Part shown: one piece after another, positions 7,113 to 36,055 of the stretch
How the letters are laid out: each line of letters starts with the position of its first letter
Position numbering within the stretch: the stretch's first letter is position 1
Source of the DNA: an uncultured Gammaproteobacteria bacterium
GTDB lineage: Bacteria; Patescibacteriota; Patescibacteriia; UBA1558; GWA2-36-10
Reading direction: 5' to 3'
NCBI GenBank assembly: GCA_964424615.1
Contig: CAYRIU010000007.1
Span: forward strand, 20,052 to 84,051
Length of the DNA: 64,000 bases
Translations under genes and position numbers: made by a program
Notes under the pieces: generated by a model
What the model saw: only the letters and a program-made list of their open reading frames with translations
Told to the model about the DNA's origin: nothing
The model's database searches: none

Positions 7113-7113
7113 T

Positions 7114-8787: not shown

Positions 8788-8851
8788 CTCTTTAGAAATT
8801 TATCTAATAAATATAATTTTAATATCTAGGCTAAGACCTCTATATAACATA

Positions 8852-9454: not shown

Positions 9455-9479
9455 ATTTTTTTATTTAATATTATAAATT

Positions 9480-11787: not shown

Positions 11788-11808
11788 TTTAAATACTTTA
11801 CTTCTTAA

Positions 11809-11949
11809 TTCACCCCGTTGAATAGTCCCGCTAGGCGGGACTACCGCCAAAAAAATATTTTTAATTATTTTATTTTTATCATTAAATAATTAACTCTTCT
11901 ATCACCAATAGTATTTAGGTGGCGGTATTCAACAGGGTAAATTATAACA
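11809..11949 (-). promoter_or_regulatory. Promoter plus structured 5' leader element, copy 1 (upstream of pilM)
   Basis: Minus strand: TGtTATAAT (plus 11941-11949), then ttaccctgttgaataccgcc, a 72-nt AT-rich spacer, ggcggtag, hairpin tcccgc-cta-gcggga, ctattcaacggggtgaa, about 21 nt, then the pilM ATG. Same architecture as 61654-61800. Confidence 0.6.
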
Positions 11950-11962: not shown

Positions 11963-11992
11963 AAAAAAAGTTGGCTCAATAACCAACTTTTT
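11963..11992 (-). terminator. Rho-independent terminator after the Cys-rich pilin gene
   Basis: Hairpin agttgg-ctcaataa-ccaact flanked by an A7 run on the plus strand (T7 on the minus strand) and a T run, so it can act in both directions. Confidence 0.7.
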
Positions 11993-12026: not shown

Positions 12027-12902
12027 TTACATACTAGGACAAATTTTAGTACAACCACCACAATTGGCATTGCAATAACCACCACTACAACCAACTGGTC
12101 CGGAGTGTGGGGTACCAGCAACGCCACATTCTGGGCCAGTATAGTCACACACCTCCGTCCTAGATACAGTACCATTACACGTATCGTTGCAATAAGTGCC
12201 ATTCTGCTTGATACCATCACCACACACTTCGGCACCATCATCACAAGTCTCTGTCAAAGTGATAGTAGCTGTACAAGTAGAATTGCAATGATTACTACCG
12301 CTTTCTACAATAAGATTACCACAAGTTTGAGTTTCATCTGTAGTATTGCCATCATCACAGACTTCTGTGCCTTCTATACTGCCATTGCCACAGACCTGAC
12401 AAACTCCACAATCACCACCGCAAGTACTACAGCTTTCTGTGGCATTACATATGCCATCACCACAACAAGAATTGTTCAAACAAGTACCAGCAATATAATC
12501 CTTGTGTGACTGAATAAAAAATGGCGAACTAGAAACATTGACTAGCATCACTACCGACTTACTCCAAGAGCCTACAGCCGAAGTAGTGGTAGCTGTAGAG
12601 GTAACTGTCTTAAGACCAGCATCAGTAGCAGAAATCTTATAAGAACAACTAACACCACCAATGTCAATAGAATAATCACCAGATGCACTAGTAGTAGAAG
12701 CTATCTGCCACATAGCATCACTCAAACAAGCATCAATATTGTACATCACATCATCAGACTCTAGAGTATGATAATTAGCGATATTATTTGAAGTATTGAC
12801 CATAGCGATGATCACACTGGAGACAATAAAAATAGAAGTGATCATAATCACAAAAATCAACGCTACAAACCCATTATTATTTTTTCTTAAATTATTTATC
12901 AT
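12027..12902 (-). CDS. Pilin-like protein with C-terminal cysteine-rich repeats (Myxococcus Cys-rich-repeat-like CGNG..E.CDDGN)
   Basis: 291 aa. N-terminal hydrophobic prepilin-like helix (NNGFVALIFVIMITSIFIV). C-terminal approx 150 aa has more than 30 Cys with two CG(N/D)G...E(V)CDDG(N/A) units. Confidence 0.7.
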   Translation of the reverse strand: MINNLRKNNNGFVALIFVIMITSIFIVSSVIIAMVNTSNNIANYHTLESDDVMYNIDACLSDAMWQIASTTSASGDYSIDIGGVSCSYKISATDAGLKTVTSTATTTSAVGSWSKSVVMLVNVSSSPFFIQSHKDYIAGTCLNNSCCGDGICNATESCSTCGGDCGVCQVCGNGSIEGTEVCDDGNTTDETQTCGNLIVESGSNHCNSTCTATITLTETCDDGAEVCGDGIKQNGTYCNDTCNGTVSRTEVCDYTGPECGVAGTPHSGPVGCSGGYCNANCGGCTKICPSM

Positions 12903-12906: not shown

Positions 12907-14214
12907 TTAATTTGCTCCCTGAGATTGTAGAGCCCAAATCTCTGAATTTGATAAAGCTCTATTATACAAACGTAATTCGTCTATAGTGCCAGCAAAATGA
13001 TCACCAATATGCGGATAGTTGCTAGTAGAATCATTGACCAAGAATGGCAGACTAGAAGCTGTAGTTGTACTAATATTGCCAACTCCTTTTTCATAGATCA
13101 ACATTTTAGCACTATCAGTAGGTAGATCATATACGACAGTAATATTGTAGACGGTGGCGTCAGCTAATATAGAACCGGCATCCAAAATATTAGAGCAAGT
13201 TGTGCCATTACACAAAGTAAAAATTACTTGCCCAGCATCTTCATTATTCAATAAATAATAACCCTTTGAACTACCATTAAATTTATTTATAATACCATGC
13301 TCTGAGGCATCTGGTGCATCAGTCTTGACCCAGGTGGATATGGTAAAACCATTACCAAAATTGAATTGTTCTGGATTATTAACATAACAATAATCAGAAT
13401 CTGCAGGATCAAAGTAAAAAGCATTGGTACTGCCATCTACCAAACCAGTAACAGATGTTGGACCACCAGTGCCAGTGCAAATCAAATTATAACCACCCAC
13501 CTTATCTGTGGCTGCACTAGTATCTGTATCATCAAACTTGTACCAGCTGACTAAGCCATTTGGCTGCTCATTGCGCATATCAGCAGTACTAGTAGCCTCT
13601 GAGCTAGCTCGCAAGCTAATCTGATCAGATGAAGGTAAAGTGACCTTGAGATGAGTAGTGACAGTGCTATAGCTATTGGCTGTGGTAGAAGCTGTAGAAG
13701 TAGAAAAATCCAGATTAGAATTGGTCACTATCACTTCTGGGCCAGTCAAAAAATAAGAATTATCCGCACTAGCTGCGCAGGCATTGTATTGACCATTGTT
13801 GGCAATATTTGGATAACAAGTCATCTTAAGGCGATTATTTACTACTGTAATTTTTACTCCCCCACCTCTCTCTACACACACGCCTGGTAAATAATTATCA
13901 TCTTCAAAATACAAAGCTAATATTGGTGGATTGACATTAAAATTAGAGCAATCTCCATCTATATCTTTGAGTAAACCATCGGCATTTCTGATCAAATAAT
14001 TAATAGTAGATAAAGCAGAACGTCTATTACGAGAAGCGTCTATATTAGCACTGATCTTGGCAGTCGTATTACCCATAGTCAAAGCAAAATCTACAACCGC
14101 CGAAATCACAATACCAACAATAGCCAAATAAATAATAGCTTCTACCAATGTAAAAGCAGCTAAAGATTTTTTTTGACGCAAAATATTATTTTTTAAACAT
14201 ACTTTCTTGAACAT
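12907..14214 (-). CDS. Pseudopilin with C-terminal LamG/concanavalin-A-like lectin domain
   Basis: 435 aa. Prepilin-like N-terminus (SLAAFTLVEAIIYLAIVGIVISAVV). C-terminal LamG_3-like pattern (NGLVSWYKFDDTD...GYNL...FTISTWVK...IDELRLYNRALSNSEIWALQ). Confidence 0.75.
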   Translation of the reverse strand: MFKKVCLKNNILRQKKSLAAFTLVEAIIYLAIVGIVISAVVDFALTMGNTTAKISANIDASRNRRSALSTINYLIRNADGLLKDIDGDCSNFNVNPPILALYFEDDNYLPGVCVERGGGVKITVVNNRLKMTCYPNIANNGQYNACAASADNSYFLTGPEVIVTNSNLDFSTSTASTTANSYSTVTTHLKVTLPSSDQISLRASSEATSTADMRNEQPNGLVSWYKFDDTDTSAATDKVGGYNLICTGTGGPTSVTGLVDGSTNAFYFDPADSDYCYVNNPEQFNFGNGFTISTWVKTDAPDASEHGIINKFNGSSKGYYLLNNEDAGQVIFTLCNGTTCSNILDAGSILADATVYNITVVYDLPTDSAKMLIYEKGVGNISTTTASSLPFLVNDSTSNYPHIGDHFAGTIDELRLYNRALSNSEIWALQSQGAN

Positions 14215-14226: not shown

Positions 14227-17200
14227 TTAACGGTAATTGAGGCGCAATGAATACAAGGTAGCTGTTTCCGAATTATTATTACAGGAAGTCAAAGCTAATC
14301 TATATCTAAAATATCTCAAGTTATTCAAAGAAGCTGGAGTGCTGCTGGTAAAATTTGACGCACTACTATCGGCAAATGCTTGACTATTATAAGTAGCAAA
14401 AGAATTGTCATTGCTACCCTCTAGTGTCAAGGTCAAAGAACAACCACTAGGTATACTTTGAAAAAGTTTGATACTATTCAAAACTTTGTCACTAGAACCA
14501 AGATCAATAATAGAAGATACTAAGCTACCAGGCGAACTATACAAAGAAGCATTGGACTCTGAACCAATAGAATAAAAAGTAGAAGTAGCAGTCATGTTAT
14601 TGTACTCTGTCTTGATCCAACCAGCACTACGCAAAGTTTTGGAAACACGCACTTCATCAATACCACCCTTAAAGAAATAACTACTAGAGCTCCAATCACG
14701 ACCAATGTACATATTATTTGAAGTGCCTATAGAATAGGAATCTGTAACAGCCGCTTTACTATTATCTGCGTTACCATTAACGTAAAATTGATAACCAACA
14801 CTTCTATCATTAGTCAAGGCAATATGCGTCCATATATCTTCTGTCAAAGCATTTGTTGTATAAACATCACCTAAGTCAACGCTACCAGATCCTGCCATAA
14901 ATTGTAGTTTATCTCCTGCTCCTTGATGATAGCGTATATTCCAACCTTCAGCTATAGTGGCATTACCATTACCTTTATATATAGGACAAGAATAATCCGT
15001 ACCCGTAGAATCCGGCTTGATCCAAAATTCTACAGTAAAATCACTGGTTCCTTGCTGATTATCAGCATTATTAGTGATAGTCTGATAGTCATAACTACCA
15101 TCATAAGTTTGACCATGACCAACTTTACCATTTGATTGTAAGGGGCCATTGGTAACATACTTGGTAGCATCATTAGTATTAAATTTGCTATTTCTATTTT
15201 TAGTGGTGCTAGCCACATTGAGTGTCACTAGATCATCCAGATGCTGAACTACTTGATAATTACTATCCCAAACGCTAGATACACGCTCCATAGGAGTAAT
15301 AATGTGGCTATTACCATAAAACATATAAATATCAGTATTCGTAATACTAGATAGAGATGGTATGCGTACATAAGCCTCTATTTGTCCTGTACTGGAGCTA
15401 TAAGATACTAATTCATGATCCAAAAGTGTGGTCTGATCATCAGCGGTAAATAAAATATCATAACCCTTGTCACTCTGTATTCTGCCACCATTGGTCACTG
15501 TTTTCAGGTAACTTTGTATTTCTGAAATCAAAACCGGAAAACTACTGTGTGGACCACTCTGCACTTGACTACTATTGATAGTAATTTTTCTTTGATAGCT
15601 AAAAGAAGTGGGAGTAGGACGTGTCTCTGGACGAGAAATAAAATACATACGAAAAACATAACCAGTACTATTATACTCTAAAAAGAAAAAACCACCCTGA
15701 GCACTAACATATCTAGCATAATGATGTGGCCAGGTAGTCATGGTAGAAGCATAAGTCGAAGTATCAGAAGTGACACTGGTGATATTCGTAGGATCAGATA
15801 CATCTAGGGCGTACATATTGGCTTCGGTAGTACTATAAGTAATGACAGTACCATCACCATCATATATCAAACCAGACGAACTAAAGGTAGCCGGAACATC
15901 ATAAGTATCAAGTAAAGTAAAACTACTACCTGTATCCCTCACTGTTTTGACTTCTGCGCTAGTTTCTTCTGTAGCTATAGCAAAAGTATTACCACTACCT
16001 GAATTACCTAAATAAACTAAATCATTAGTATGAGCGGAACCAGTATACTTATAAACCAAACTAACACTAGCCGTATTGGAAATATCCCACTTACTAATAG
16101 AATAAGCAGAATTTTCTCCAGTTACATACAAATAAGGTGTAGCTCCGCTCTCATCTAGCCACATATTATGTGGAGTGGTACCCCACTGTTGCCAAGCAGA
16201 AGATACTAGGTTACCTTGAGATGAGTTGCCAGCTAAGTCTCCAGTCAATGTAGAGCCATCAGCTGATATAGTAAATGAATATAAACCACCATAAGCGCCC
16301 GTAGCTAATAATTTGGTTTGAGCTGCGTTGATAGCTATATCCATAATCCTATTACTAGCCACAACATCAGTGGTATTGAGTGTCTGCACAATAGTCTGAG
16401 TATATAAATCAATCACTTGGATAAACTTAGCACCATCACTAAATGGTCCTCTGCCAAGATAAGCATAGTGTCCGTTGGGATGAATTTTACAAGAATAAAT
16501 CTCTTCAGCTATGGTCATATTCCACAAAAGATTAATTTTGTTCTCTCGGACATTGCTAATATCGTAGGCTGAAATACCAAGGCCACTACCACCACAAGCA
16601 TACATAGTATCTCCGTCTGGAGAAGTATCCATGGCATAGTTCGTTGGCCAACCACCAGTGATAGCAATATAAGTCTCTGGTGATAAATCAGCCCAATCAC
16701 CAAAACTGCCATTACTCGCTGACTGCAAGGCCAAAGAAACCTGACCAACAGTAGAGGTGCTCACATTGCTATAGGAAGATGAGGCAGTGATCATACTAGC
16801 CCAAAATTCATTGGCTGTGGTCCCAGACCAATCAGTCTGCTCCCAAGTTTTACTGGACCAATTGGTATAAAATGTAGTCAAAACATAATCAGCTATGCCA
16901 GTACCAGAAACTGTGACTGTCACTTGCTTGGTATCTGGGTCATCTGTGCCACCAGAAGCCACGATAGACCCAGCACTATTACGCTGCACATCACTGACTA
17001 CAATCACCCTAGTCAAGCCATTTGATATATTACTAGTGCCACTAAACTCCCACAAACCATTGTTTTTCTGCACTCCTCGGGGACTGCCATCAGCAGCTGC
17101 CACGATAGTTTGCCAGCCATTGTCCCTGATACTACGAGTAGCCTCCATACCCTCTTGGGCAAATTGGGCAATAGCTTGCTTATCACCAACACCAAAAAAA

Positions 17201-17320
17201 TTTTTATAAGAAGTAGTAAAAACATAAACAACTCCCGAGGCCAAAATAGAAAAAATAGCGATAGCTACAATCAGCTCTACCAGAGAGAAGCCTTGTATTT
17301 TTTTTAATATTTTTTTTCAT
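14227..17320 (-). CDS. Giant (~1030 aa) minor-pilin-like adhesin (beta-propeller-like region plus LamG domain); 5' end disrupted by a 1-nt frameshift in a poly-A(8) tract
   Basis: The ORF track gives 14227-17244 starting with a TTG inside a hydrophobic helix. Immediately upstream, the same frame reads KKILKKIQG|FSLVELIVAIAIFSILASGVV, a canonical prepilin signal, but the ATG at 17318-17320 is +1 out of frame across two A8 runs. A C-terminal LamG-like segment is present (TVEFWIKPD...GGIDEVRVS). Confidence 0.7.
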
Positions 17321-17322: not shown

Positions 17323-17883
17323 CTAATCACCATAATATACTAATCCTGCTGGAGTAGTACTGACTGTTTTTTGTTCACTCACTGTATTGACCAAGATAAT
17401 AGCCTGCTCTGGCATTTCATAAGCCAAAGTAGTAGTACTCAACCAACCAGCTACTCTAGAAAAATAAAATTCATTTTGCTGATCACTGTTGGCTAAAGAC
17501 ACGCCATTTTTCAAATCAAAAATACTATCATAAGAGCTGTCCCTCGTATCATAGCTCCTGCCTTTGAATACCACTACACAGTCACCGCTATTGAGACAGG
17601 CTGAATTATTATCCAATACCTTGACACCCCAATCGTCGGAAAAATATCCAGTCACAGCATAATTTCTAGCTTTGGCAATATGATCGACTACCGCTTTAGC
17701 GCTAGCGTCCAAACTTTTTTCTTGAGTACGACTACCCAACAAAGAAGCACCAGAAGACAACAAAATCAACATAATAGCCACTATCAACAAAACTTCAATC
17801 AAAGTAAAAGCTCCTTGGGGCAATATACCTTTTAGTCGATATTTATATATTTTTTTTATAAATAAATGCACAACAATTAACAC
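17323..17883 (-). CDS. Pseudopilin (prepilin-type N-terminal domain protein)
   Basis: 186 aa. ...KGILPQG|AFTLIEVLLIVAIMLILL with G-1 and E+5. The exact start is uncertain. Confidence 0.75.
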   Translation of the reverse strand: MLIVVHLFIKKIYKYRLKGILPQGAFTLIEVLLIVAIMLILLSSGASLLGSRTQEKSLDASAKAVVDHIAKARNYAVTGYFSDDWGVKVLDNNSACLNSGDCVVVFKGRSYDTRDSSYDSIFDLKNGVSLANSDQQNEFYFSRVAGWLSTTTLAYEMPEQAIILVNTVSEQKTVSTTPAGLVYYGD

Positions 17884-17891: not shown

Positions 17892-19106
17892 TTAGCCACC
17901 GCCTGATAATTCCATCAGTTTGAAGATTGGCTGGATGATACCAATAGCCACCACACCAACTACCAAACCAATGACAATCAATAAAGCCGGCTCCAAGATA
18001 CTGGAAAAATTCTTGGAAGCATTGTCAACATCTTCTTCATAAAAATCAGCTAGATAATCAAGTACATCGCTCAAATTACCAGAGTTTTCACCGACTCTGA
18101 TCATACGATACAACATAGGTGGAAAATATTGTCTATTAGCCATAGCATCAGATAGTGAATTACCTTTCAAAATATTATGATAAACTATGGTCAGCTGCTC
18201 TCTATAGACAGCGCTAGTCAAAGTATCTGATACTATTTTGAGAGCCTGATCAATAGTGATGCCACTATTCAACAAAGAGCCCATAGTACGACAATACAAA
18301 GCTAAATTCATTTCACGAATAATGTGACCTGCCAAAGGGATTTTCAGATAAAAATAATGTAGCCACAATCTAGTATTATAAAATCTCTCCATAATCTGTG
18401 CTGCTACTACCACTCCCACTACCACAGCAATAATCACCCACCAATAACTACTCAAAAAAGCAGAAGATGCTTGTAATAGCTTGGTCAGTGGTGGCATATT
18501 GTCACCCAAGGCAGCAAAAAAACCTTGTAATTTTGGCAACACCAAAGTAGATACCATGGTCATCAAGCCTAACACGGCAATCAAAACTATAATTGGATAA
18601 ATAGAAGCCGCTTTTATTTTACTACGTAGCTCATATGTTTTGTGTTGCTGGACAGCCAAAATTTCTAAATTTTTAGCTAGTGTACCAGATGATTCACCGA
18701 CAGCTACCATATTCACAAAAAGATTGTTAAAATCTTTGGGATACTTTTTCAAAGCACTGGCAAAAGAATTACCTTTGCGCACTTCATTGAGCAAGCCGAC
18801 CATACGATCATGCACCAATGGTGAAGCACCATCAGCCAAAACTTCCAAAGCAGCGTCAATAGACATGCCAGATTTTATCATCACTGAGAGATGTTTGGAC
18901 ATCATGACTCTGTCCACCAAGCGCATAGAGCCGATAATAATCTGCTTTTTGGTTATATTTTTTTTGTCTTTGCTATATTGTTCTAGAGAAACCAAAGTCC
19001 CCTCCTGCAAAGCTAAACGATTGCGAGCTTCTTGGATATTAGCCGCATCCATTTTGCCTTTGACGATCTTACCTTGATTGTCAGTGAGTTTATAATTAAA
19101 CTGCAT
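17892..19106 (-). CDS. pilC: Type IV pilus inner-membrane platform protein PilC (GspF family)
   Basis: 404 aa with two T2SS_F domains and three TM segments. Confidence 0.9.
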   Translation of the reverse strand: MQFNYKLTDNQGKIVKGKMDAANIQEARNRLALQEGTLVSLEQYSKDKKNITKKQIIIGSMRLVDRVMMSKHLSVMIKSGMSIDAALEVLADGASPLVHDRMVGLLNEVRKGNSFASALKKYPKDFNNLFVNMVAVGESSGTLAKNLEILAVQQHKTYELRSKIKAASIYPIIVLIAVLGLMTMVSTLVLPKLQGFFAALGDNMPPLTKLLQASSAFLSSYWWVIIAVVVGVVVAAQIMERFYNTRLWLHYFYLKIPLAGHIIREMNLALYCRTMGSLLNSGITIDQALKIVSDTLTSAVYREQLTIVYHNILKGNSLSDAMANRQYFPPMLYRMIRVGENSGNLSDVLDYLADFYEEDVDNASKNFSSILEPALLIVIGLVVGVVAIGIIQPIFKLMELSGGG

Positions 19107-19108
19107 AT

Positions 19109-20794
19109 TTATTGTTTAGTCACTCTAAATATTTCCTCAATGGTTGTCTTGCCAGAAAATGCTTTCATAAATCCGTCCTCTAGCATAGTCACCATACCAT
19201 TGGCTATGGCTAGTTTGGTTATCTGATCAGAATCTGCGCGAGCCACAATCAGCTCTCGAATATTTTCTTCTATTTTCAAAACTTCAAAAATACCCAAACG
19301 GCCAGTATAGCCAGTGTGATTGCAAGCATCACAACCCTTACCTCGATAAAGACGCACTTCTTTGACTTGGCTAGTATTGATAAATTTATCAATATTGATT
19401 TCTTTTTTTATATCTGCTATTTCTTGTTCAGACAAAATATAGCTATAAATACATTTCATACATATCTTCCTGACCAATCTTTGACCAATAATCACATTGA
19501 CAGTAGAAGCTACCAAAAATGGCTGTATCTCCATATCAAGTAGACGTGGCAATGAGGTAGCAGCATCATTGGTATGCAAGGTAGACAAGACCAAATGTCC
19601 AGTCATAGCTGAATTCACAGCGATACCAGCAGTTTCATTGTCACGAATTTCTCCCACCATTATAATATCTGGATCTTGACGCAATAACGAACGTAAACCA
19701 GCAGCAAAAGTCAAATTAGTAGCTGGATTGACCTGCACTTGATTGACGCCATCCAAGCTATACTCTACTGGATCTTCGATGGTACAAATATTGATATCAC
19801 GTTTATTGAGAATCTTGACCAAGGCATACAAAGTGGTGGTTTTACCAGAACCAGTAGGTCCAGTGGACAGGATCATACCGTATGGCTTATTGATAGCTTC
19901 ATTGACTACTGCCAAATCTTTTTCATTCATACCTAGCTCTTCTAGGGTAAAAAATTTACCCTGAGAAGACAAAAGTCTCATAACTACTTTTTCACCATGA
20001 ACAATTGGCAGAATAGAGACTCTGATATCTAGCTTGATATTTTCTACCTCTGTCACAATCTTACCATCTTGAGCTGCCCTAGTTTCATCAGTACGTAGTT
20101 TGGCTAAGATTTTTATCCTAGTGACTATCATGTCCAAAATATTTTTTGGTAAATTCATGATGTCATATAGTAGACCATCAATACGAAATCTAATAACAAT
20201 TTCTTTTTCTGTTGGTTCGATGTGAATATCAGAAGCATGATTCATAAAACCATAGTTGATAATATCATCTACCAATCGGATGACAGATACATCTTCCCTA
20301 GAAGCACCCTGGGCTTTGATAGCGTTTTTTTGGATGTTGCTGACATACTCAGTCTGAATACTCTTTTTGTATAGACGCAAAGCATTTTCTAGTTCGCGAT
20401 CTGTGGCGTAGTATGTCAAAACTTTGTCGCCCAATTTTTTTTCCAAAGCCTTGACCATCGGATAATCAAATGGATCAGCCATGGCTACATGAGTGCCTTC
20501 GGTATCTCTTTTGAAAATAAGCATCTTTTGCTTACGAGCGACTATCTCTGGCAACTGAGTCAAAATCTCTGGCTTGATATTTTCCTTAGCCAGATTGACA
20601 TATTTTACATGTAAATTGTTGGCTATCAACTGTCCTATTTCTTGTGCCTTGATGAGTTCCTGCTCAATCAAAAAACCAACAAAATCTATTTTTTTCTCTC
20701 GAGAAGTTTTGAGAGCTGTATCCAAAACATCAGGCTTGATCAAGCCGTATTTGCTTATGATTTGATAAACCTTCTCATCGGTCACTATGGACAT
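19109..20794 (-). CDS. pilB: Type IV pilus assembly ATPase PilB (GspE family)
   Basis: 561 aa. GspE N-terminal domain, Walker A GPTGSGKTT, Asp/His boxes, and a tetracysteine Zn motif (CMKC...CDAC). Confidence 0.92.
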   Translation of the reverse strand: MSIVTDEKVYQIISKYGLIKPDVLDTALKTSREKKIDFVGFLIEQELIKAQEIGQLIANNLHVKYVNLAKENIKPEILTQLPEIVARKQKMLIFKRDTEGTHVAMADPFDYPMVKALEKKLGDKVLTYYATDRELENALRLYKKSIQTEYVSNIQKNAIKAQGASREDVSVIRLVDDIINYGFMNHASDIHIEPTEKEIVIRFRIDGLLYDIMNLPKNILDMIVTRIKILAKLRTDETRAAQDGKIVTEVENIKLDIRVSILPIVHGEKVVMRLLSSQGKFFTLEELGMNEKDLAVVNEAINKPYGMILSTGPTGSGKTTTLYALVKILNKRDINICTIEDPVEYSLDGVNQVQVNPATNLTFAAGLRSLLRQDPDIIMVGEIRDNETAGIAVNSAMTGHLVLSTLHTNDAATSLPRLLDMEIQPFLVASTVNVIIGQRLVRKICMKCIYSYILSEQEIADIKKEINIDKFINTSQVKEVRLYRGKGCDACNHTGYTGRLGIFEVLKIEENIRELIVARADSDQITKLAIANGMVTMLEDGFMKAFSGKTTIEEIFRVTKQ

Positions 20795-20796
20795 AA

Positions 20797-21213
20797 TTAT
20801 ATTTTCTCTGAATTATTTTTGGCTTGTTTACTCTGAGTCTTAGAATTCAAATATTGATTGATTTTTTCGACCAGTATACCCAGAGTAATATTATCTTTAA
20901 TCAAATAATCCACTGCTCCTAGATCCACGCCTTTTTTCTTGTCATCCTCTTGACCAAGATTGGATAATATAATCACTGGAATATTTCTAGTTTTGGGATT
21001 TCTTTGCAGTTCCGTCAAAACCTCAAAACCACTTTTCTTGGGCATGATCATGTCCAAAATAATCAAATCAGGATCTTCTAGTTGAGCTTTTTCCAAGCCT
21101 TCTTCCCCGTCTTGAGCCAAAACTACATCAAAATTCTTTTCTTTGAGCTCGGCTTCATAAACTTTGCGCAAGAAGTTGTCATCATCAACAAATAAAATCT
21201 TGGGATTTGGCAT
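20797..21213 (-). CDS. CheY-like response regulator (receiver domain only)
   Basis: 138 aa. ILFVDDD...DLIILDMIMPKKSGFEVL with the conserved Asp and Lys positions. Confidence 0.88.
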   Translation of the reverse strand: MPNPKILFVDDDNFLRKVYEAELKEKNFDVVLAQDGEEGLEKAQLEDPDLIILDMIMPKKSGFEVLTELQRNPKTRNIPVIILSNLGQEDDKKKGVDLGAVDYLIKDNITLGILVEKINQYLNSKTQSKQAKNNSEKI

Positions 21214-21215
21214 AT

Positions 21216-22766
21216 TTATAAAAGATTATTGACGTCTAAAATTAAATTAACTCTACCAGAAGAAGATATAGCCAAACCTTTAAACTTTGGCAATAACTTC
21301 ATGATGCTAGGATTTTTTTTCATCACCAATTCGCTTTCTTTTATATTACTAGATATTGGCAAGGCATAAAGATTTTTTTGAATATTCAAAAACAATACAT
21401 ATTTAGCTGGAGCTTTGATCTCTAGTGGTAATATAGAATGTAAATTCAATAATTTGATTCTTTTTTTATTATAAACAAAATATTGATCATTGCTAAGATT
21501 TTTGATCTCTGGCAATTTGACTACTCTATCCACATAAGACATCGGTATAGCCAAAGACCAGTCACCAAGCTGCCAAGCAATGCTCCTAAATATAGACAAT
21601 GGCAATGGCAAATGTAAAATAAATTTAGTGCCTTTATTCAAAGTACTACTGACCTCTACCTGACCATTGAGCTTGCTCATCCTATCTTTGACTACACTCA
21701 AGCCTACTCCTCGACCACCATGGATGTCCATATTCTTTTTGCTGGACATGCCTGTATGAAAAAGCAAACTTGGTATATCAATCAATTTTAATTTGCGACT
21801 TTCTTCCACGCTGATGACACGCTTGTGTACAGCCAAAGCCAAAACCTTTGACCAATCAATACCACGACCATTGTCACTGACTGTGACGACCAACTCATCA
21901 GCCTCCAAAACCGCATTCAAAACTATCTGCCCATTTTTTTGACTAGATTTGATACCATGCACAATAGAATTTTTAATCAACTGCACAATAACCTCTAACA
22001 GCTCATCCAATATAGACTTGTCTAGTGATATATCATTGTGTTCTATGACCAGGGTAGCATTTTTGTGCTCATCACGGGCAATAGAGCGTACTAGATAAGG
22101 TAAATTGGAAAATACCTGCTCCAAGGGCAAAATACGCATCCTCTCTAGTTCACGACGCAAATTATTGGCCAGAGTATCAGCTGTCACAACATTGGAAAGA
22201 ATTTGGCTTTGTCCAGTCTTTATGGCCGCACCTTTGATACTCATGATATTGACCAGAAGATCATCCAACAAATTTTGTATTTTATCCAAATCTCTAGCTG
22301 CCACAATCATCTCTGTGCTTTCATGCGGAGCAACTAGCTCATCACCAATATGCTTAGTGTTTATTTTATCTGTCTTTTTTATTTTGACTGGAGACTTTAA
22401 TATTTTTTCTAAATCAGCAATAGCTTGCTTAAAATCCAACTCCCCGCCACCCTGACTAATATGTTGCAAATTGGCATGCAAAGTATCCAAGGCACGAAAT
22501 ATGAGATCTAGACTATCTTTATTGACCAACAGAGTGCCATTGATCATAGCCTGGACCAATGACTCGACCTGATGCACATACACTATAGTATCCTTGTAAC
22601 CCATAGTAGCAGCCGAACCTTTCATAGCATGCAGGATGATAAATAGGGTCTGTAAATATTCGGAATTTTTAGGATTTTTTTCTAACAAAAGTAAAACATC
22701 AGCAATGGATTTAAGCTGCTCTTGAGTGCTTGATAAATACAAATCTTTATATTTCTCACTAAACAT
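21216..22766 (-). CDS. cheA: CheA-like histidine kinase (HPt, HATPase_c and CheW-like domains)
   Basis: 516 aa. HPt (LHAMKGSAATMGY), ATPase G-boxes (DNGRGID...GGRGVGLSVV), and a C-terminal CheW-like domain. Confidence 0.88.
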   Translation of the reverse strand: MFSEKYKDLYLSSTQEQLKSIADVLLLLEKNPKNSEYLQTLFIILHAMKGSAATMGYKDTIVYVHQVESLVQAMINGTLLVNKDSLDLIFRALDTLHANLQHISQGGGELDFKQAIADLEKILKSPVKIKKTDKINTKHIGDELVAPHESTEMIVAARDLDKIQNLLDDLLVNIMSIKGAAIKTGQSQILSNVVTADTLANNLRRELERMRILPLEQVFSNLPYLVRSIARDEHKNATLVIEHNDISLDKSILDELLEVIVQLIKNSIVHGIKSSQKNGQIVLNAVLEADELVVTVSDNGRGIDWSKVLALAVHKRVISVEESRKLKLIDIPSLLFHTGMSSKKNMDIHGGRGVGLSVVKDRMSKLNGQVEVSSTLNKGTKFILHLPLPLSIFRSIAWQLGDWSLAIPMSYVDRVVKLPEIKNLSNDQYFVYNKKRIKLLNLHSILPLEIKAPAKYVLFLNIQKNLYALPISSNIKESELVMKKNPSIMKLLPKFKGLAISSSGRVNLILDVNNLL

Positions 22767-23199
22767 AAATTTTCAATGTAGAAAATATCTGCTCTATCTC
22801 TAAAATATAAATTTTTTGCTTAGCAACTTTAATATACTTTTGCAAAATATTTTTTGTTTTTTCCGTAAAAATTTTATTAGCGGATATTGTATCCATGCCT
22901 TGGTCAACTATCAAGGCATAAAAATCTCCTTTGTAGCTAAACAATAAACATTGGAGATTGGTCGGCATTTTCCAATTACACCCCAAAAATTTATCAGTGC
23001 GTAAAACAGTCACCAGATGTCCATTGAGATAAGAAACTCCAGCTATATATTTATTATTGATGGGCAGTGCCGACAAATGCTCACAACTAAAAAATTGACT
23101 ATCTGCATTCAAGGGCACGGCCAATATTTTATCAGCCAATTGAAAAGTAATAAATTGTTGTTTTTTAGCTGTCATATTAATTTTTACCCACCAAATCAC
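22759..23199 (-). CDS. cheW: CheW-like coupling protein
   Basis: 146 aa. CheW fold pattern (FITFQLADKILAVPLN...VSYLNGHLVTVL). Overlaps the cheA start by 8 nt. Confidence 0.75.
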   Translation of the reverse strand: MIWWVKINMTAKKQQFITFQLADKILAVPLNADSQFFSCEHLSALPINNKYIAGVSYLNGHLVTVLRTDKFLGCNWKMPTNLQCLLFSYKGDFYALIVDQGMDTISANKIFTEKTKNILQKYIKVAKQKIYILEIEQIFSTLKIYV

Positions 23200-24319
23200 T
23201 CAATGTATCTGTGACCTTGTTGAGAGCTATAGATGATTTGTTCAAAGACCTAGTGACCACTAGCTGCTCACCTATGACCTTGGCTATATCATCAGTTTGC
23301 TTGACTAGTAGTTTTGATTGCTGGGAAATATTGGAAATAACTTTATTCACCTGATTAGCATCCTCATAAGTCTTGTTAGTCTCTGTATTTACCACTTGGA
23401 TATCATGAGCAATACTGTCAATATTATTACTAATCTTAGTTAAAAAATTTAATGTTTGACTAACAACGCTAATACTTTTATTTGTTTCTTGCCATTCATA
23501 GACAGCTGACTTCTTGGATTGGTCTATCTGTCTACGCATATCTTGAGCCAATGACTGTATACTACTAGCTGCCTGCTCACTGATATTATTGAGATCACGA
23601 ATTTGTGTCACCAAACCAGCAAATTCTTCACTATAAGAAGCTTTTTTGGCTTCAATAGACATATTTAAGCTAAAAAATTTGGTAGTTTCTGCTACTGTCT
23701 CTACCCTCTGCGCTATCTCACCTACTTGTTGGGCATATTGATCCAAAGCTTGGCTCAATTTTTGTGTGTCGGTCAATAAATTTTTAACTGCTACCAAGCT
23801 AGCCAAAGCCTTTTCTGATTGTATTTTACCATCCTCTGCTAATTTATTAGCTTTACCAACACTATCAGTAGCTGCTCCAGTTTTGTGTGTGATCTCTACT
23901 AGAGAATGAACCATTTTGGACAATGACTGACTACCTGCTTTCAAGCCACTTTGTTGTTGTTGAGACGAAGAAGTTAAAAATTGAGAAATCTGATTATTGG
24001 TTTGACTAATATTTGACAAGCCTTGTATAGAGGTCAATAGTAAGCCTACTACCTTACTCAGTTCATTGACAGCTACTTGTGCTGGGGCTGTCACGTTCTT
24101 ACTCAGACGACGAGTAGCGACTAGAGAAAGGCCAAAAACTAAAGCTAAAGAAACAAAAAGTCCAATCAAAATGTTAGCCGGCAAAACTCCCGCTTGCAGA
24201 AAGCCACGATATTGACTGGAGAGAGCAAAAGAGGCCAATAAAACAACCAACGGTAAAATAGATACCGCTACAAACCAAAGAATAAATTTCAAGTAAATTT
24301 TTGTTTCTACAAGTTTCAC
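23177..24319 (-). CDS. Methyl-accepting chemotaxis protein-like transducer (PilJ-like)
   Basis: 380 aa. Two N-terminal TMs, then a coiled-coil with the MCP signalling-hairpin motif (TTKFFSLNMSIEAKKASYSEEFAGLVTQIRDL resembling [31 protein letters not shown]). Confidence 0.75.
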   Translation of the reverse strand: MKLVETKIYLKFILWFVAVSILPLVVLLASFALSSQYRGFLQAGVLPANILIGLFVSLALVFGLSLVATRRLSKNVTAPAQVAVNELSKVVGLLLTSIQGLSNISQTNNQISQFLTSSSQQQQSGLKAGSQSLSKMVHSLVEITHKTGAATDSVGKANKLAEDGKIQSEKALASLVAVKNLLTDTQKLSQALDQYAQQVGEIAQRVETVAETTKFFSLNMSIEAKKASYSEEFAGLVTQIRDLNNISEQAASSIQSLAQDMRRQIDQSKKSAVYEWQETNKSISVVSQTLNFLTKISNNIDSIAHDIQVVNTETNKTYEDANQVNKVISNISQQSKLLVKQTDDIAKVIGEQLVVTRSLNKSSIALNKVTDTLSDLVGKN

Positions 24320-24433
24320 TTTTTTTGTTTTTCTTTTCCCTTTTGGTTAATTAAATTATAACATATTTTAGACCAAAAACAAAGAGCGCCTAATGTGCAT
24401 AAGACGCTCTATGATTATGAGAATAAAAAGTCA

Positions 24434-26599
24434 CTAGTTCCGTAAAAAATCTTCCAGCATATTTATTAGCTCTTGCTGTTTATCTACTTTGGCTTGCTCC
24501 AAATATGCATTTAGATCGGCAATCTGAGATTGATCAAAACTATTTTCACTGTGTTGCAAGTTCCAATCTTTCACTATACCAACATTGTGGGCAAATTCTT
24601 TGTAATCTTTAGTCAGCCAATAGACTTGTGCTAATTTCCAGTAAACATCACGAGAGTGTGGCGCTAAATCCCTAGCCAATAAGGCTTGTTCTTGAGCTTT
24701 TTCATATTCGCCTTTTCGCTGGTATTCTTTTTCTAAAGCAAATTTTATTTCTACTCTCCAGGGAGCTAATTTTGACATAGCTTCTAACAAATAAATATCT
24801 CTATCAATAAATGACTGATCAAAATTACCGACAAACTGATAAAAATTGGATAAAAACATGCCGGATCTGATATCCATTGGATATTTTTCATAATTTGATT
24901 CCAGATATTGACCAGTTAAATTCATAAATTCAAATCTAATATCATCAGTGGCATATGGATTACTAATAATCAAGCCCAAAATATCATTCAGAGATGCGGT
25001 TTTTTCTTTGTCACCTAACGGTACCATACCATATGATTTAATCCAATTATTCTTAACCATCTGAAAATCATCCGCAGTCTTTGCTCTTTGCGCCTCGGTA
25101 AATGTCTGAACAAAAATAATGTTACTCCTCCAAGGCTTCCAAGCCATATAATAAACTAAAGCAAAAGATAATAAAATTAATAAAATTTTTCTAAATAATA
25201 AATTAAAACGGTGTGTATTTAAATTTTCTTGCCAAGTTTTAAACCAAGACATCAGTCTAGATTGACGATCTATATCTGAGATGGTCAATGAAAATAAATA
25301 GGCTAAAATTAGATAAAAAACAACATTAACATTAAGATTGTCAAAGATAAAGAAATCTTGAACCAAAAAACTAATCAAAAAAGCTGCCCACAAAGATGGC
25401 ATCACCCAAGTATCCCCTCTTTTGATCAGGCTACGTAAAATAAACAAAAGATAAATAAATATAGCAATATATAAACCAAAGCCTACTAAACCGCCATGGA
25501 CCAAATGCTGGACCAAAATATTGTGCGGTCTATCAAACCATATCTCTGAGCCCATAGTTACAAAAATAGCCGAAGGGAAATACTTGTTAAAAGAGTCAGA
25601 AAAATTCTCCTCACCCCATCCGAGCAATGGTTTTTCTCTAAAAGAATATAAAATACTATTTTTCCAGATCATCAAACGTGATTGAGTGCTAGTATCAGTC
25701 AAAGATATATTGGCCAATCTAGAAAAAATTGGCACTGATTTTACCCAGGAGCTATCTTTTTGTACAAAAATCAAAGTAATAAACAGTAAAGCCGCTATCA
25801 CCAAACTGATCACGGTATAATAAAATTTTTGCCTATTATGCCTTTCATAATATAAATATGCTGAGGCCAATAGAAGAGCAAAAAATACTAGACCCAAAAA
25901 AGCACCTCTAGTCTCAGTGGCTAATAAGATAACAATAAATATCACGATGCTAATGGCATAATAAAATGCTGACCAAGAATAAAAATTATGGTTTATAAAT
26001 TTTTTAATCAACAAATAAGTAGCCAAAACTATATTCAAAAATAAATAAGAACCGACGTAGGCCGCATTACCTAAAGTACTAGATAAGCGTTGACCGCCAG
26101 CTGAGCTCATTAGAAAACTTACATTCAAAACCTGCCCCACAGCATACAAGGCAACCAAGACAGCCACAAACAATGAAGTCTTAAATAAAACCTGCCAATC
26201 CTCTGCCGTTTTATTAATACCAATCAAAACTATGACATACATCAAGATGTGATACCAATTGACTAGACCATCCATTCTTTCAAATGAACTCCAAAAACTA
26301 AAAAGAAAATGACCACCAAAAATACTAGAAATAGTCAAAGTCAAAATAAATAAGACAAACAAAATCAAACCTTTGTTAAATTTTGGCCACTGATAAGTAT
26401 TTTTTATAACCAACCAAATATAAAGAGGAAATATGATATCAATAATCAGTCTAAAAAATATATTGCGAGGAAAAACAAAAGGAAAATATGCATCACCGTA
26501 TATAATAAGCGGAGCAAACAAAATCAGCATTAAACCGCATTTGATCACTAATTTTAATATTGCATCTTTTCCTACAAAATGACTAGATAATTTTGACAT
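24434..26599 (-). CDS. O-antigen ligase/polymerase-like (Wzy_C-type) polytopic membrane protein with C-terminal TPR repeats
   Basis: 721 aa. More than 10 TMs in the N-terminal 430 aa and a TPR-like C-terminus. Paralogous in architecture to 46009-48195. Confidence 0.65.
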   Translation of the reverse strand: MSKLSSHFVGKDAILKLVIKCGLMLILFAPLIIYGDAYFPFVFPRNIFFRLIIDIIFPLYIWLVIKNTYQWPKFNKGLILFVLFILTLTISSIFGGHFLFSFWSSFERMDGLVNWYHILMYVIVLIGINKTAEDWQVLFKTSLFVAVLVALYAVGQVLNVSFLMSSAGGQRLSSTLGNAAYVGSYLFLNIVLATYLLIKKFINHNFYSWSAFYYAISIVIFIVILLATETRGAFLGLVFFALLLASAYLYYERHNRQKFYYTVISLVIAALLFITLIFVQKDSSWVKSVPIFSRLANISLTDTSTQSRLMIWKNSILYSFREKPLLGWGEENFSDSFNKYFPSAIFVTMGSEIWFDRPHNILVQHLVHGGLVGFGLYIAIFIYLLFILRSLIKRGDTWVMPSLWAAFLISFLVQDFFIFDNLNVNVVFYLILAYLFSLTISDIDRQSRLMSWFKTWQENLNTHRFNLLFRKILLILLSFALVYYMAWKPWRSNIIFVQTFTEAQRAKTADDFQMVKNNWIKSYGMVPLGDKEKTASLNDILGLIISNPYATDDIRFEFMNLTGQYLESNYEKYPMDIRSGMFLSNFYQFVGNFDQSFIDRDIYLLEAMSKLAPWRVEIKFALEKEYQRKGEYEKAQEQALLARDLAPHSRDVYWKLAQVYWLTKDYKEFAHNVGIVKDWNLQHSENSFDQSQIADLNAYLEQAKVDKQQELINMLEDFLRN

Positions 26600-34101: not shown

Positions 34102-34184
34102 AATAATTATTTAATATTAATTTTAACAACACTAATACTAACACACGTAAATACTAAAAACAATGGTGTATTATATATTTTTTA

Positions 34185-36051: not shown

Positions 36052-36055
36052 AAAC

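What the first reader, a model, noticed from the sequence alone, without database searches (positions are those of the whole stretch)
17892..24319. Minimal chemosensory module (MCP-CheW-CheA-CheY) transcriptionally fused to the T4P motor genes
MCP (23177-24319), CheW, CheA (HPt-HATPase-CheW) and a stand-alone CheY are arranged head-to-tail with 4-23 nt overlaps, directly followed by pilB and pilC and then five pilin-like genes. No CheB/CheR, CheZ or flagellar genes are in the window. The arrangement resembles a stripped-down Pil-Chp (PilJ/PilI/ChpA/PilG) system hard-wired into the pilus operon, suggesting signal-controlled pilus extension (twitching or host attachment). A chemosensory input physically fused to a T4P operon in a reduced genome merits attention.
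Basis: partly seen in the sequence, partly recalled or inferred. Interest (0 to 1): 0.55.

Follow-up and report, generated by a model that had tools for sequence, protein, structure and literature searches.

The report
Chemosensory module fused to pilus operon
An ultrasmall candidate-phyla-radiation (Patescibacteria) bacterium, from a group usually said to lack chemotaxis genes, carries a complete minimal receptor-kinase-regulator signalling set in the same gene string as its type IV pilus motor, and this layout is conserved across a whole clade, so pilus activity is probably under sensory control.

Summary
On the minus strand, 24319-17892 encodes MCP, CheW, CheA (Hpt-P3-kinase-P5), a stand-alone CheY, PilB and PilC. 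Spacers are 1-2 nt or an 8-nt overlap, and six prepilin-like genes and a PilM-N fusion follow. The window holds no CheB, CheR, CheZ, PilT or flagellar gene.

The organism is a Patescibacteria (Komeilibacteria-like) bacterium. The same order, MCP-CheW-CheA-CheY-PilB-PilC-pilins, recurs in every sufficiently long contig from about 30 species-level relatives and in one more distant lineage. All four che genes are under purifying selection.

The receptor has two transmembrane helices and a ~10-residue loop, with no sensor domain and no HAMP. Its hairpin is about 44 heptads long. The kinase has one Hpt, no P2 and no receiver domain.

This does not fit the Pil-Chp/Tfp-class architecture. It looks instead like an F1-type core recruited independently. 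Related CPR lineages have a classical histidine kinase, or a receptor-less CheA remnant, in the same slot ahead of REC-PilB-PilC.

Most likely mechanism (inferred): CheY~P acts directly on the pilus motor. I found no published description. I rate it a new variant of a known kind, of moderate to high interest.

The parts
24375..24410 (-). Terminator-like hairpin (9-bp stem AGAGCGUCU/AGGCGCUCU, 10-nt loop, U-run) ending the upstream Wzy_C gene. It marks the likely 5' boundary of the che-pil transcription unit.
   Evidence: Read. The RNA fold gave a region z-score of -2.28. The simple scan missed it because the loop exceeds 8 nt.
24355..24363 (-). Extended -10 promoter-like element TGtTATAAT, 36 nt upstream of the MCP start codon.
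   Evidence: Read directly from the sequence. It is a consensus match only, not evidence of function.
23177..24319 (-). MCP-like receptor, 380 aa. TM1 spans ~12-34, a ~10-aa outside loop follows, and TM2 (~46-68) runs as one continuous helix into a ~44-heptad hairpin with its turn at 228-230. It has no sensor domain, no HAMP, and a divergent tip (LNMSIEAKKASYSEEFAGLVTQIRDL).
   Evidence: Pfam MCPsignal 48.4 bits. Hydropathy. AF2 model at pLDDT 75 with helices 2-35, 46-227 and 231-377. Foldseek best matches are B. subtilis McpB/YvaQ models and T. maritima 2ch7. The family has 75 members, nearly all 380 aa.
22759..23175 (-). CheW adaptor, 138 aa from the ATG at 23175.
   Evidence: Pfam CheW 33 bits. 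The 8-nt overlap with cheA is the commonest spacing, seen in 18 of 27 loci. dN/dS 0.04-0.15.
21216..22766 (-). CheA-type kinase, 516 aa, built as P1(Hpt)-P3-P4-P5 with no P2 and no receiver. H46 (HxxKG), the N box (N266/H270/G271), G1 (D298xGxG) and G2 (GRGVGL) are invariant in the family.
   Evidence: Pfam. 20-sequence alignment A1. T. maritima CheA P3-P5 aligns to residues 159-515. The family is discrete: 6 clusters at 581-745 bits versus <=396 bits for the next ordinary CheA-type proteins.
20797..21213 (-). Stand-alone CheY-like receiver, 138 aa, with D10/D11, D54, S84, Y103 and K106 conserved. It is the best-conserved che gene (62-98% identity across the clade).
   Evidence: Pfam Response_reg 86.8 bits. 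52 of 138 columns are invariant. Identities. dN 0.02-0.065.
19109..20794 (-). PilB/GspE-family assembly ATPase, 561 aa, with an N-terminal MshEN-like domain.
   Evidence: Pfam T2SSE 428 bits and MshEN 41.8 bits. NCBIfam TIGR02538 at 526 bits, below the equivalog cutoff of 675.
17892..19106 (-). PilC/GspF-family platform protein, 404 aa.
   Evidence: Pfam T2SSF 207.6 bits, two repeats. NCBIfam GspF/PilC models.
17323..17883 (-). Minor pilin-like protein (GspH-like) with the leader ...PQGA|FTLIEV.
   Evidence: Weak Pfam N_methyl hit. NCBIfam GspH-like. N-terminus read.
14227..17319 (-). Giant pilin-like protein (~1030 aa) with DUF2341 and LamG domains, a putative tip adhesin. The prepilin leader MKKILKKIQG|FSLVE is out of frame because of an A8 run after the ATG at 17319.
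   Evidence: Pfam Laminin_G_3 92.6 bits. Frames and sequence. Intact orthologues in L010, L011, L012 and L015.
12907..14214 (-). Pilin-like protein with a LamG domain, 435 aa.
   Evidence: Pfam N_methyl and Laminin_G_3.
12027..12902 (-). 291-aa protein with a pilin-like N-terminus that lacks Glu5 (NNNG|FVALIF). It is conserved in the operon.
   Evidence: No Pfam hit. N-terminus read. Synteny.
11965..11992 (-). Strong terminator-like hairpin (12-bp stem plus T-run) in the 176-nt gap after orf291. This is the likely 3' end of the MCP-to-orf291 unit.
10030..11850 (-). PilM fused to a TM segment and an extracytoplasmic domain (PilM-PilN-like), 606 aa.
   Evidence: Pfam PilM_2 75.5 bits. C-terminal sequence with a TM segment.
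8948..9956 (-). Two paralogous major-pilin-like genes (158 and 168 aa) with canonical G|FTLIELIIVIA leaders.
   Evidence: Pfam N_methyl 37.4 and 31.8 bits. N-termini read.
24434..26599 (-). Wzy_C (O-antigen-ligase-like) membrane protein, a conserved upstream neighbour of the che-pil operon. It is not shown to belong to the system.
   Evidence: Pfam Wzy_C 74.8 bits. Present upstream in most related loci.

Best explanation
This is a self-contained Che-type phosphorelay built into the type IV pilus operon of a Patescibacteria (Komeilibacteria-like) bacterium.

Shown:
- The four core proteins are present.
- Catalytic and phospho-acceptor residues are intact.
- All four genes are under purifying selection.
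- The genes are fixed immediately upstream of pilB-pilC throughout a clade.

Inferred mechanism:
1. The sensor-less two-TM receptor forms a small array with CheW and CheA. It reports a membrane-proximal cue rather than a soluble ligand. The cue could be the state of the pilus machine, the pilin pool or the envelope, for example on contact with a host cell.
2. CheA autophosphorylates on H46 and passes the phosphoryl group to D54 of the single CheY.
3. CheY~P has no output domain. It binds a motor component, most plausibly the PilB ATPase (its N-terminal MshEN-like domain), or else PilC or PilM. This switches pilus assembly on or off.

No CheR, CheB or phosphatase gene lies in the window or within about 10 kb of cheA in related loci. 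The system may therefore work as a simple switch without methylation-based adaptation.
For: - **Domains and residues:**
- **Receptor structure:** no sensor, no HAMP, ~44-heptad hairpin.
- **Synteny:** the order is invariant in about 30 species-level loci and in a distant lineage with CheA 32% and PilB 57% identical.
- **Spacing:** the CheY>PilB gap is <=56 nt in every locus where both genes could be scored, and 2 nt here.
- **Operon boundaries:** a terminator-like hairpin and TGnTATAAT lie upstream of the MCP, and the next strong terminator-like hairpin comes only after orf291.
- **Conservation:** CheY and PilB are the two most conserved proteins of the cluster. dN/dS is <=0.16 wherever dS was not saturated (CheW, CheA, one CheY pair); for MCP and the other CheY pairs dS was saturated and dN was 0.02-0.11.
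- **Reduced variants:** when the receptor part is lost, an Hpt-kinase, CheY and PilB remain.
- **Other Parcubacteria:** a classical HisKA kinase plus a single REC occupy the same slot before pilB-pilC.
- **Precedent:** phosphorylated PixG binds PilB1 in Synechocystis (PMC11181946).
Against: - There is no experimental or expression evidence; co-transcription is inferred from spacing only.
- The CheY target is unknown, and CheY looks like a generic receiver.
- The receptor tip, which normally contacts CheA and CheW, is strongly divergent. CheW is poorly conserved, with 6 invariant residues. Array formation is therefore not assured.
- PilT, PilD, CheR and CheB could not be searched in the rest of the genome.
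- The consensus promoter and terminator scans are at chance level, so internal promoters cannot be excluded.
Confidence: 0.62

Rival explanations
1. Dif-like or ACF-type logic, with the pilus as input rather than output. Pilus or pilin state is sensed by the receptor, and CheY~P controls something else. The target could be the adjacent glycan or polysaccharide pathway, or another cellular process.
For: - The operon always lies next to a Wzy_C gene, a divergently transcribed Bac_transf gene and a large glycosylation cluster.
- In Myxococcus, T4P and PilB act upstream of exopolysaccharide (EPS) regulation (PMC5544727, listed).
- The receptor has no ligand-binding domain.
Against: - CheY is wedged directly against pilB, not against the glycan genes, which lie upstream or on the other strand.
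- In Azambacteria- and Sungbacteria-type loci, HK-REC-PilB-PilC occurs without that glycan neighbourhood.
- Both directions could also coexist.
Confidence: 0.15
2. A true but reduced member of the Tfp (Pil-Chp/Tax) class. On this reading it descends from a PilJ-PilI-ChpA-PilG system and has lost its extra Hpt and REC domains, its second regulator and CheB/CheR.
For: - It has the same presumed output, the type IV pilus.
- Cyanobacterial Tax systems are also described with an MCP, a kinase and two regulators and no CheB or CheR listed (abstract of PMC11181946).
Against: - The kinase has a single Hpt and no receiver.
- There is only one CheY.
- The receptor is ~44H long. 44H is the cognate type of F1 and F9 (PMC10746217).
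- The nearest non-pilus CheA lies in a CheB/CheC-X/CheD cluster.
- The best NCBIfam model is haloarchaeal CheA at 262 bits, against 129 bits for the E. coli type.
Confidence: 0.1
3. The PilB-PilC-pilin machine is not a motility or attachment pilus. It is instead a competence (DNA-uptake) pilus or a secretion pseudopilus, and the che module gates that function.
For: - PilB scores equally well on the PilB and GspE models, both below the equivalog cutoffs.
- No PilT lies in the window.
- CPR T4P genes are often discussed alongside competence genes (PMC10849945).
Against: - Two giant or large LamG-bearing pilin-like proteins suggest adhesion.
- No comEC or comEA lies nearby.
- This rival changes the behaviour controlled, not the signalling mechanism.
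Confidence: 0.1
4. A decaying relic. On this reading the che genes are non-functional remnants carried along with the pilus operon.
For: - The receptor tip is divergent and CheW is weakly conserved.
- Some lineages have lost MCP, CheW and the P5 domain.
Against: - All reading frames are intact.
- dN is 0.02-0.2 with saturated dS.
- Catalytic residues are invariant.
- Receptor length is fixed at 380 aa.
Confidence: 0.03

Closest known systems
Pil-Chp system of Pseudomonas aeruginosa (PilJ, PilI, ChpA, PilG/PilH, ChpB, PilK; Tfp class)
   Same: Both are MCP-CheW-CheA-CheY type pathways associated with type IV pili. In both, the receptor is thought to read pilus or surface state rather than a classical attractant (PMC11656802).
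   Different: - ChpA's multiple Hpt domains and C-terminal receiver are recalled from my own knowledge. Here there is one Hpt and none.
- Pil-Chp has two regulators, and PilG signals through CyaB and cAMP (PMC11656802). Here there is one CheY.
- The Pil-Chp CheB and CheR homologues (ChpB, PilK) are recalled from my own knowledge. None is seen here.
- That the Pil-Chp genes are not fused to pilB-pilC is also from my own knowledge. Here cheY ends 2 nt before pilB.
Tax1/Pix system of Synechocystis (PixJ, PixI, PixL, PixG, PixH)
   Same: A chemotaxis-like system whose phosphorylated regulator (PixG) binds the PilB1 motor ATPase directly (PMC11181946). This is the best precedent for the proposed output step.
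   Different: - PixJ is a photoreceptor.
- PixL has a C-terminal receiver.
- PixG is a PatA-type regulator, and a second regulator, PixH, antagonises it.
- The genes are not in the pilB operon (my own knowledge; not stated in the abstract read).
- Here the receptor has no sensor, the kinase has no REC, and there is one plain CheY.
F1-class chemosensory systems (Bacillus, Thermotoga, archaea), with 44H receptors and CheC/CheD
   Same: - The receptor hairpin length and best structural matches are B. subtilis McpB/YvaQ and T. maritima TM1143.
- CheA scores best on the haloarchaeal CheA model.
- The closest non-pilus CheA lies in a CheB/CheC-X/CheD cluster.
- F1 is defined by CheC plus CheD with cognate 44H receptors (PMC10746217).
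   Different: - No CheC, CheD, CheB, CheR or CheV lies at the locus.
- There is no P2 domain.
- The output is a type IV pilus operon, not a flagellum or archaellum.
- The receptor tip motif is strongly divergent, and no non-family MCP reached E<=1e-3.
Histidine kinase-REC-PilB-PilC operons of other Parcubacteria-group CPR (Azambacteria/GW2011 and Sungbacteria contigs), seen here
   Same: A single-domain receiver gene lies immediately upstream of pilB-pilC and the pilins. The receiver is 36-46% identical to this CheY.
   Different: The kinase is a classical 311-331-aa HisKA-HATPase_c protein, not a receptor-coupled CheA. There is no MCP and no CheW.

Membership tests
Che-type chemosensory pathway (core MCP-CheW-CheA-CheY) | Receptor with an MCP signalling hairpin | tested here: met
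   Pfam MCPsignal 48.4 bits against a cutoff of 34.6. AF2 gives a helical hairpin. Foldseek matches solved and modelled chemoreceptors.
Che-type chemosensory pathway (core MCP-CheW-CheA-CheY) | CheA with an Hpt phosphorylation site, a dimerisation domain, the kinase N/G1/G2 boxes and a CheW-like P5 | tested here: met
   Pfam Hpt, HATPase_c and CheW. T. maritima P3-P5 aligns to residues 159-515. H46, N266, D298xGxG and GRGVGL are invariant. The Pfam H-kinase_dim model itself did not hit.
Che-type chemosensory pathway (core MCP-CheW-CheA-CheY) | CheW adaptor, and a single-domain CheY with the acidic pocket, phospho-Asp, Thr/Ser and Lys | tested here: met
   CheW 33 bits against a cutoff of 23.5. 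Response_reg 86.8 bits. D10/D11, D54, S84, Y103 and K106 are invariant.
Che-type chemosensory pathway (core MCP-CheW-CheA-CheY) | Methylation-based adaptation (CheR/CheB), which is auxiliary and not universal | tested here: inconclusive
   Neither gene is in the 64-kb window or within about 10 kb of cheA in related loci. The rest of the genome could not be searched. No clear methylation consensus and no C-terminal pentapeptide were seen.
Tfp class (Pil-Chp / Tax-Pix) of the Wuichet-Zhulin classification | Hybrid CheA with multiple Hpt domains and/or a C-terminal receiver (ChpA, PixL) | tested here: not met
   The kinase has one Hpt and ends with P5. No Response_reg hit appears in any of the 20 family members aligned. 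The feature itself is recalled from my own knowledge and from PMC11181946.
Tfp class (Pil-Chp / Tax-Pix) of the Wuichet-Zhulin classification | Two response regulators (PilG/PilH, or PatA-type PixG plus PixH) | tested here: not met
   A single receiver gene lies between cheA and pilB in all loci.
Tfp class (Pil-Chp / Tax-Pix) of the Wuichet-Zhulin classification | Phylogenetic placement of CheA, CheW and MCP in the Tfp clade | not testable with these tools
   No class-labelled reference set or MiST class HMMs were available. Indirect signs point elsewhere.
F1 class | CheC and CheD auxiliary proteins (PMC10746217) | tested here: not met
   Both are absent from the window and from all related loci. 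They are present next to the closest non-pilus CheA relative, P0039 in L094.
F1 class | Cognate 44H receptors (PMC10746217) | tested here: met
   The cytoplasmic arms are ~159 and ~147 residues, about 44 heptads. The model aligns over the full 309-residue T. maritima 2ch7 domain. This measures length only; no formal heptad-class HMM was run.
Type IV pilus / type II secretion-like filament machine | PilB/GspE ATPase, PilC/GspF platform, PilM, and prepilins with class III leaders | tested here: met
Type IV pilus / type II secretion-like filament machine | Prepilin peptidase (PilD) and retraction ATPase (PilT) | tested here: inconclusive
   Neither is in the window. The rest of the genome was not available.

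The most novel reading that the evidence does not exclude
A lineage of ultrasmall, probably episymbiotic CPR bacteria independently recruited an F1-like chemosensory core and wired it directly to the type IV pilus motor. Its ligand-blind two-TM receptor reads pilus, pilin or envelope state. That would give these cells contact-triggered or directional ('host-seeking') pilus behaviour. It would be a second, independent origin of chemosensory control of T4P, in a phylum thought to lack chemotaxis. The kinase module would also be evolutionarily interchangeable (classical HK, full Che array, or receptor-less CheA) in front of a conserved REC-PilB unit.
Probability: 0.3. Interest if true: 0.78.

Novelty: new variant of a known kind. 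Interest (0 to 1): 0.6.

Why it matters
CPR/Patescibacteria are routinely described as lacking motility and chemotaxis machinery (PMC11974145, PMC11809585). Their type IV pili are considered central to finding and attaching to hosts.

A conserved, minimal receptor-kinase-regulator set fused to pilB-pilC suggests how such cells might decide when to extend pili. It also offers a very small natural Che system: one receptor of fixed length with no sensor domain, one CheW, one P2-less CheA and one CheY. Such a system could be reconstituted to study array signalling and CheY-to-PilB coupling.

The swap series in related lineages (classical HK, Che array, receptor-less CheA, all ahead of REC-PilB) is a clean case for studying how signalling modules are exchanged in front of a fixed output.

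Tried and rejected
- **Exact look-up of the window's CheA.** Its 100%-identical database copy could not be located either, so the rest of the genome could not be reached.
- **RNA searches.** Rfam and tRNA scans of the window found nothing.
- **Literature.** Ten full-text searches found no description of a che-T4P operon in CPR. The papers that mention both topics do so incidentally.
- **Wuichet & Zhulin 2010.** The paper is not held, so class definitions are taken from secondary sources and from my own knowledge.
- **Metagenome scan with PilB.** The derived patterns were too specific and returned only 16 loci. These nevertheless revealed the HK-REC-PilB variants.
- **Promoter and terminator scans.** Counts are at chance level (87 versus 75±9 promoters; 11 versus 11.2 terminators). 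They neither support nor exclude internal transcript boundaries.
- **Methylation sites.** S119/Q122 and E/Q334 lie at roughly symmetric positions but do not fit the EExxA(S/T) consensus, so no claim is made.
- **c-di-GMP binding by the PilB MshEN-like domain.** By eye the RLG/Q motif residues are not kept. This rests on a motif recalled from memory, so it is left as a remark.
- **CheA phylogeny.** I considered one but did not run it, because no Tfp-class reference sequences were obtainable.

Full report
**1. What is in the sequence**

All genes of interest lie on the minus strand. Pfam assigns each above its gathering score:

| Coordinates | Protein | Pfam result |
|---|---|---|
| 24319..23177 | MCP | MCPsignal, 48.4 bits |
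| 23175..22759 | CheW | CheW, 33 bits |
| 22766..21216 | CheA | Hpt + HATPase_c + CheW-like P5 |
| 21213..20797 | CheY | 138-aa Response_reg, 86.8 bits |
| 20794..19109 | PilB | T2SSE, 428 bits, plus MshEN |
| 19106..17892 | PilC | T2SSF, 208 bits |

- The junctions read on the sequence are +1, -8, +2, +2, +2 and +8 nt.
- Upstream of the MCP is a 114-nt gap. It holds a 9-bp hairpin followed by a U-run and a TGnTATAAT element.
- The next strong terminator-like hairpin on this strand is at 11992..11965, after orf291.
- Downstream genes are a GspH-like pilin, a giant LamG/DUF2341 pilin-like protein, a LamG pilin, a Glu5-less pilin-like protein, a PilM-PilN-like fusion and two canonical major-pilin paralogues.
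- Pfam scans of every ORF of at least 120 aa in the window found no CheB, CheR, CheZ, CheC/D, PilT, PilD or flagellar gene.
- The rest of the window carries a DnaK/GrpE/HrcA heat-shock cluster, a MacB/HlyD exporter, a large glycan-synthesis cluster, an ECF sigma factor, SecY, adenylate kinase and methionine aminopeptidase.

**2. Whose genome, and is the arrangement conserved?**

- CheA homologues at 35-100% identity are all from Patescibacteria/CPR. Named sources include Komeilibacteria, 'Parcubacteria' and 'Patescibacteria group'. Several third-party-annotation (TPA) MAG titles reading 'uncultured Gammaproteobacteria' are evidently mislabels.
- A scan of one genome per GTDB species gave about 29 CPR loci. 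Further loci came from look-ups.
- In every locus long enough, tblastn with the window's proteins recovers one order. It is Bac_transf (opposite strand), usually Wzy_C, then MCP-CheW-CheA-CheY-PilB-PilC-pilin-LamG pilins-orf291-PilM-pilins.
- The 8-nt CheW/CheA overlap is the commonest spacing (18 of 27 loci), and the CheY>PilB distance never exceeds 56 nt.
- Identity to the window is highest for CheY (62-98%) and PilB (64-94%). It is lower for CheA (35-89%), MCP (33-87%) and CheW (31-72%).
- CheY has 52 of 138 invariant columns and PilB 200 of 561. MCP has 18 of 380 and CheW 6 of 146.
- Against three close relatives dN is 0.02-0.2 while dS is saturated. Ratios are <=0.16 wherever they could be computed (CheW, CheA and one CheY pair; dS was too saturated for MCP). 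The che genes are under purifying selection.
- An exhaustive profile search of 1.84 billion representative proteins found 21,748 CheA-like proteins at E<1e-30. Only six 50%-identity clusters scored 581-745 bits. Apart from one 4858-aa, 32-stretch repeat protein at 480 bits, the next hits score <=396 bits. The family is small and discrete.

**3. Anatomy of the signalling proteins**

*CheA*
- In a 20-sequence alignment these are invariant: H46 in HxxKG, the N box (N266, H270, G271), G1 (D298-x-G-x-G) and G2 (GRGVGL).
- T. maritima CheA P3-P4-P5 aligns to residues 159-515. The protein is therefore P1-P3-P4-P5, with no P2 and no receiver.

*CheY*
- It keeps D10/D11, D54, S84, Y103 and K106.
- Otherwise it looks like a generic receiver.

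*Receptor*
- Hydropathy gives two TM segments, ~12-34 and ~46-68, with a ~10-residue loop.
- An AF2 model from a 32-sequence alignment (pLDDT 75) gives helix 2-35, a loop, and one continuous helix 46-227. A turn follows at 228-230, then helix 231-377.
- TM2 therefore runs straight into the signalling bundle. There is no HAMP domain and no sensor domain.
- The two cytoplasmic arms add up to about 44 heptads.
- Foldseek's best PDB matches are B. subtilis McpB/YvaQ/McpC models and the T. maritima TM1143 cytoplasmic domain. The latter aligns over its full 309 residues.
- The receptor family has 75 detectable members and nearly all are exactly 380 aa. No other MCP reached E<=1e-3.
- The hairpin tip keeps N219, S221, I222, F233, Q239, R241, L243 and N244. 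It has lost the canonical GRGFAVVA signature.

**4. Variants that inform the mechanism**

- *Zinc-ribbon CheY.* A CheY subfamily carries a C-terminal zinc ribbon.
- *Receptor-less form.* In L035, L076 and L077 (independent assemblies; the CheY is on more than 24 contigs) MCP and CheW are absent. The kinase is a ~300-334-aa Hpt+HATPase protein without P5. CheY(Zn)-PilB-PilC are retained.
- *Distant lineage.* L095 (CheA 32%, CheY 60%, PilB 57% identical; GC 51%) has MCP(629 aa)-CheW-CheA-CheY(Zn)-PilB-PilC.
- *Classical kinase form.* In Parcubacteria-group contigs assigned to Azambacteria/GW2011 and Sungbacteria, PilB is 43-45% identical. There a classical HisKA-HATPase_c kinase and a single REC precede pilB-pilC.

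The constant element is REC-PilB-PilC, and the kinase module in front of it varies.

**5. Mechanism**

The shown facts are summarised above. The inferred chain is receptor, then CheW/CheA, then CheY~P, then the pilus motor.

- CheY has no output domain.
- CheY is as conserved as PilB.
- The two genes are never separated.

The most economical target is therefore PilB, with PilC or PilM as alternatives. A direct precedent exists: only phosphorylated PixG binds PilB1 in Synechocystis (PMC11181946).

A receptor with a 10-residue outside loop cannot bind ligands in the usual way. It more plausibly senses through its TM helices, for example the pilin pool, the machine or envelope stress. This is speculation.

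No adaptation or phosphatase genes were seen locally. Whether they exist elsewhere in the genome is untested.

**6. Comparison with known systems**

Chemosensory systems fall into 19 classes: F1-F17, Tfp and ACF (PMC9321776; bioRxiv 2022.05.07.491037).

The present system works like a Tfp-type system but fails its architectural hallmarks:
- no multi-Hpt kinase;
- no hybrid kinase with a receiver;
- no second regulator.

Its affinities point to F1-like ancestry:
- receptor length is ~44H, the cognate type of F1 (PMC10746217);
- the best NCBIfam model is haloarchaeal CheA at 262 bits, against 129 bits for the E. coli type;
- the nearest non-pilus CheA, P0039, sits in an MCP-CheW-CheY-CheB-CheA-CheC/X-CheD cluster.

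It lacks CheC and CheD, so I do not file it under F1 either. A formal class assignment needs reference trees that I could not build.

**7. Novelty and verdict**

Papers on CPR state that these bacteria lack chemotaxis machinery (PMC11974145; PMC11809585). Ten full-text searches found no description of this operon. Database annotators do label the proteins as CheA and MCP, so the genes are not invisible, only undiscussed.

Chemosensory control of T4P is a known kind of system. This is a new variant in four respects:
- lineage (CPR);
- architecture (minimal, F1-like, sensor-less and HAMP-less receptor);
- genomic wiring (one operon with the motor);
- an informative series of kinase-module swaps.

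Interest is 0.6.

Noticed in passing
window 17311-17319 (minus strand), start of the ORF 17319..14227: The giant LamG/DUF2341 pilin-like gene has its ATG and prepilin leader (MKKILKKIQG|FSLVE) out of frame with the body, because of an A8 run right after the start codon. A7 would restore the frame, and orthologues in L010, L011, L012 and L015 are intact. This is either an assembly error or slipped-strand phase variation of a putative adhesin.
   Followed up: partly
L035 6362-9704; L076 and L077 8992-12449: A reduced variant of the operon in independent assemblies. It has no MCP or CheW. The kinase is ~300-334 aa (Hpt+HATPase, no P5). CheY carries a C-terminal zinc ribbon, and PilB-PilC follow.
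   Followed up: yes
L075 10001-10663; L095 8827-9429; proteins P0207-P0240: A large subfamily of the pilB-linked CheY carries a C-terminal zinc-ribbon/DZR tail (~200-220 aa). It occurs both with a full Che module (L075, L095) and with the reduced one. The function of the tail is unknown.
   Followed up: partly
L079-L084 (e.g. L081 4335-9027): In Azambacteria/GW2011-type and Sungbacteria-type Parcubacteria, a classical HisKA-HATPase_c kinase and a single REC sit immediately upstream of pilB-pilC. A dedicated two-component input to the pilus motor seems to be a wider CPR theme.
   Followed up: partly
window 24434-26599 (-), 26773-29402 (+), 29436-44098, 46009-48195: A Wzy_C (O-antigen-ligase-like) gene and a divergent Bac_transf/flippase pair flank the che-pil operon in nearly all relatives. 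A ~17-kb glycan-synthesis cluster adjoins them, followed by a second Wzy_C-TPR protein. Pilin O-glycosylases (PilO/PglL) are, from my own knowledge, in the Wzy_C family, so this may be a pilin or surface glycosylation system.
   Followed up: no
window 3904-8892: A HlyD-like protein, an ABC ATPase and two MacB-type permeases lie directly after the pilin genes. A perfect TTGACA-17-TATAAT promoter lies at 8892..8864, and a 15-bp palindromic terminator-like hairpin at 8849-8881. The HlyD gene also follows the pilins in L011.
   Followed up: no
window 10030-11850 (-): PilM is fused to a TM segment and a ~190-aa extracytoplasmic domain (606 aa). It looks like a PilM-PilN(-PilO) fusion, and the arrangement is conserved in relatives (583-aa forms in L004).
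   Followed up: no
window 23177-24319 (-), MCP residues 119-129: Invariant S119, Q122, G125 and G129 lie in the N-arm of the receptor, about 100 residues before the tip. E/Q334 sits at the mirror position in the C-arm. This could be a hinge or a relic adaptation region, and it does not fit the methylation consensus.
   Followed up: partly
window 49106-52651 (-) and 53024-54991 (-): A 1181-aa ORF has no Pfam match. An ECF sigma factor lies next to a DUF5667 protein, a possible anti-sigma pair.
   Followed up: no
L007, L009, L012, L013, L025, L029-L031 record titles: Several third-party-annotation (TPA) MAGs titled 'uncultured Gammaproteobacteria bacterium' carry this CPR operon with CPR-like gene content. 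The taxonomic labels look wrong.
   Followed up: no
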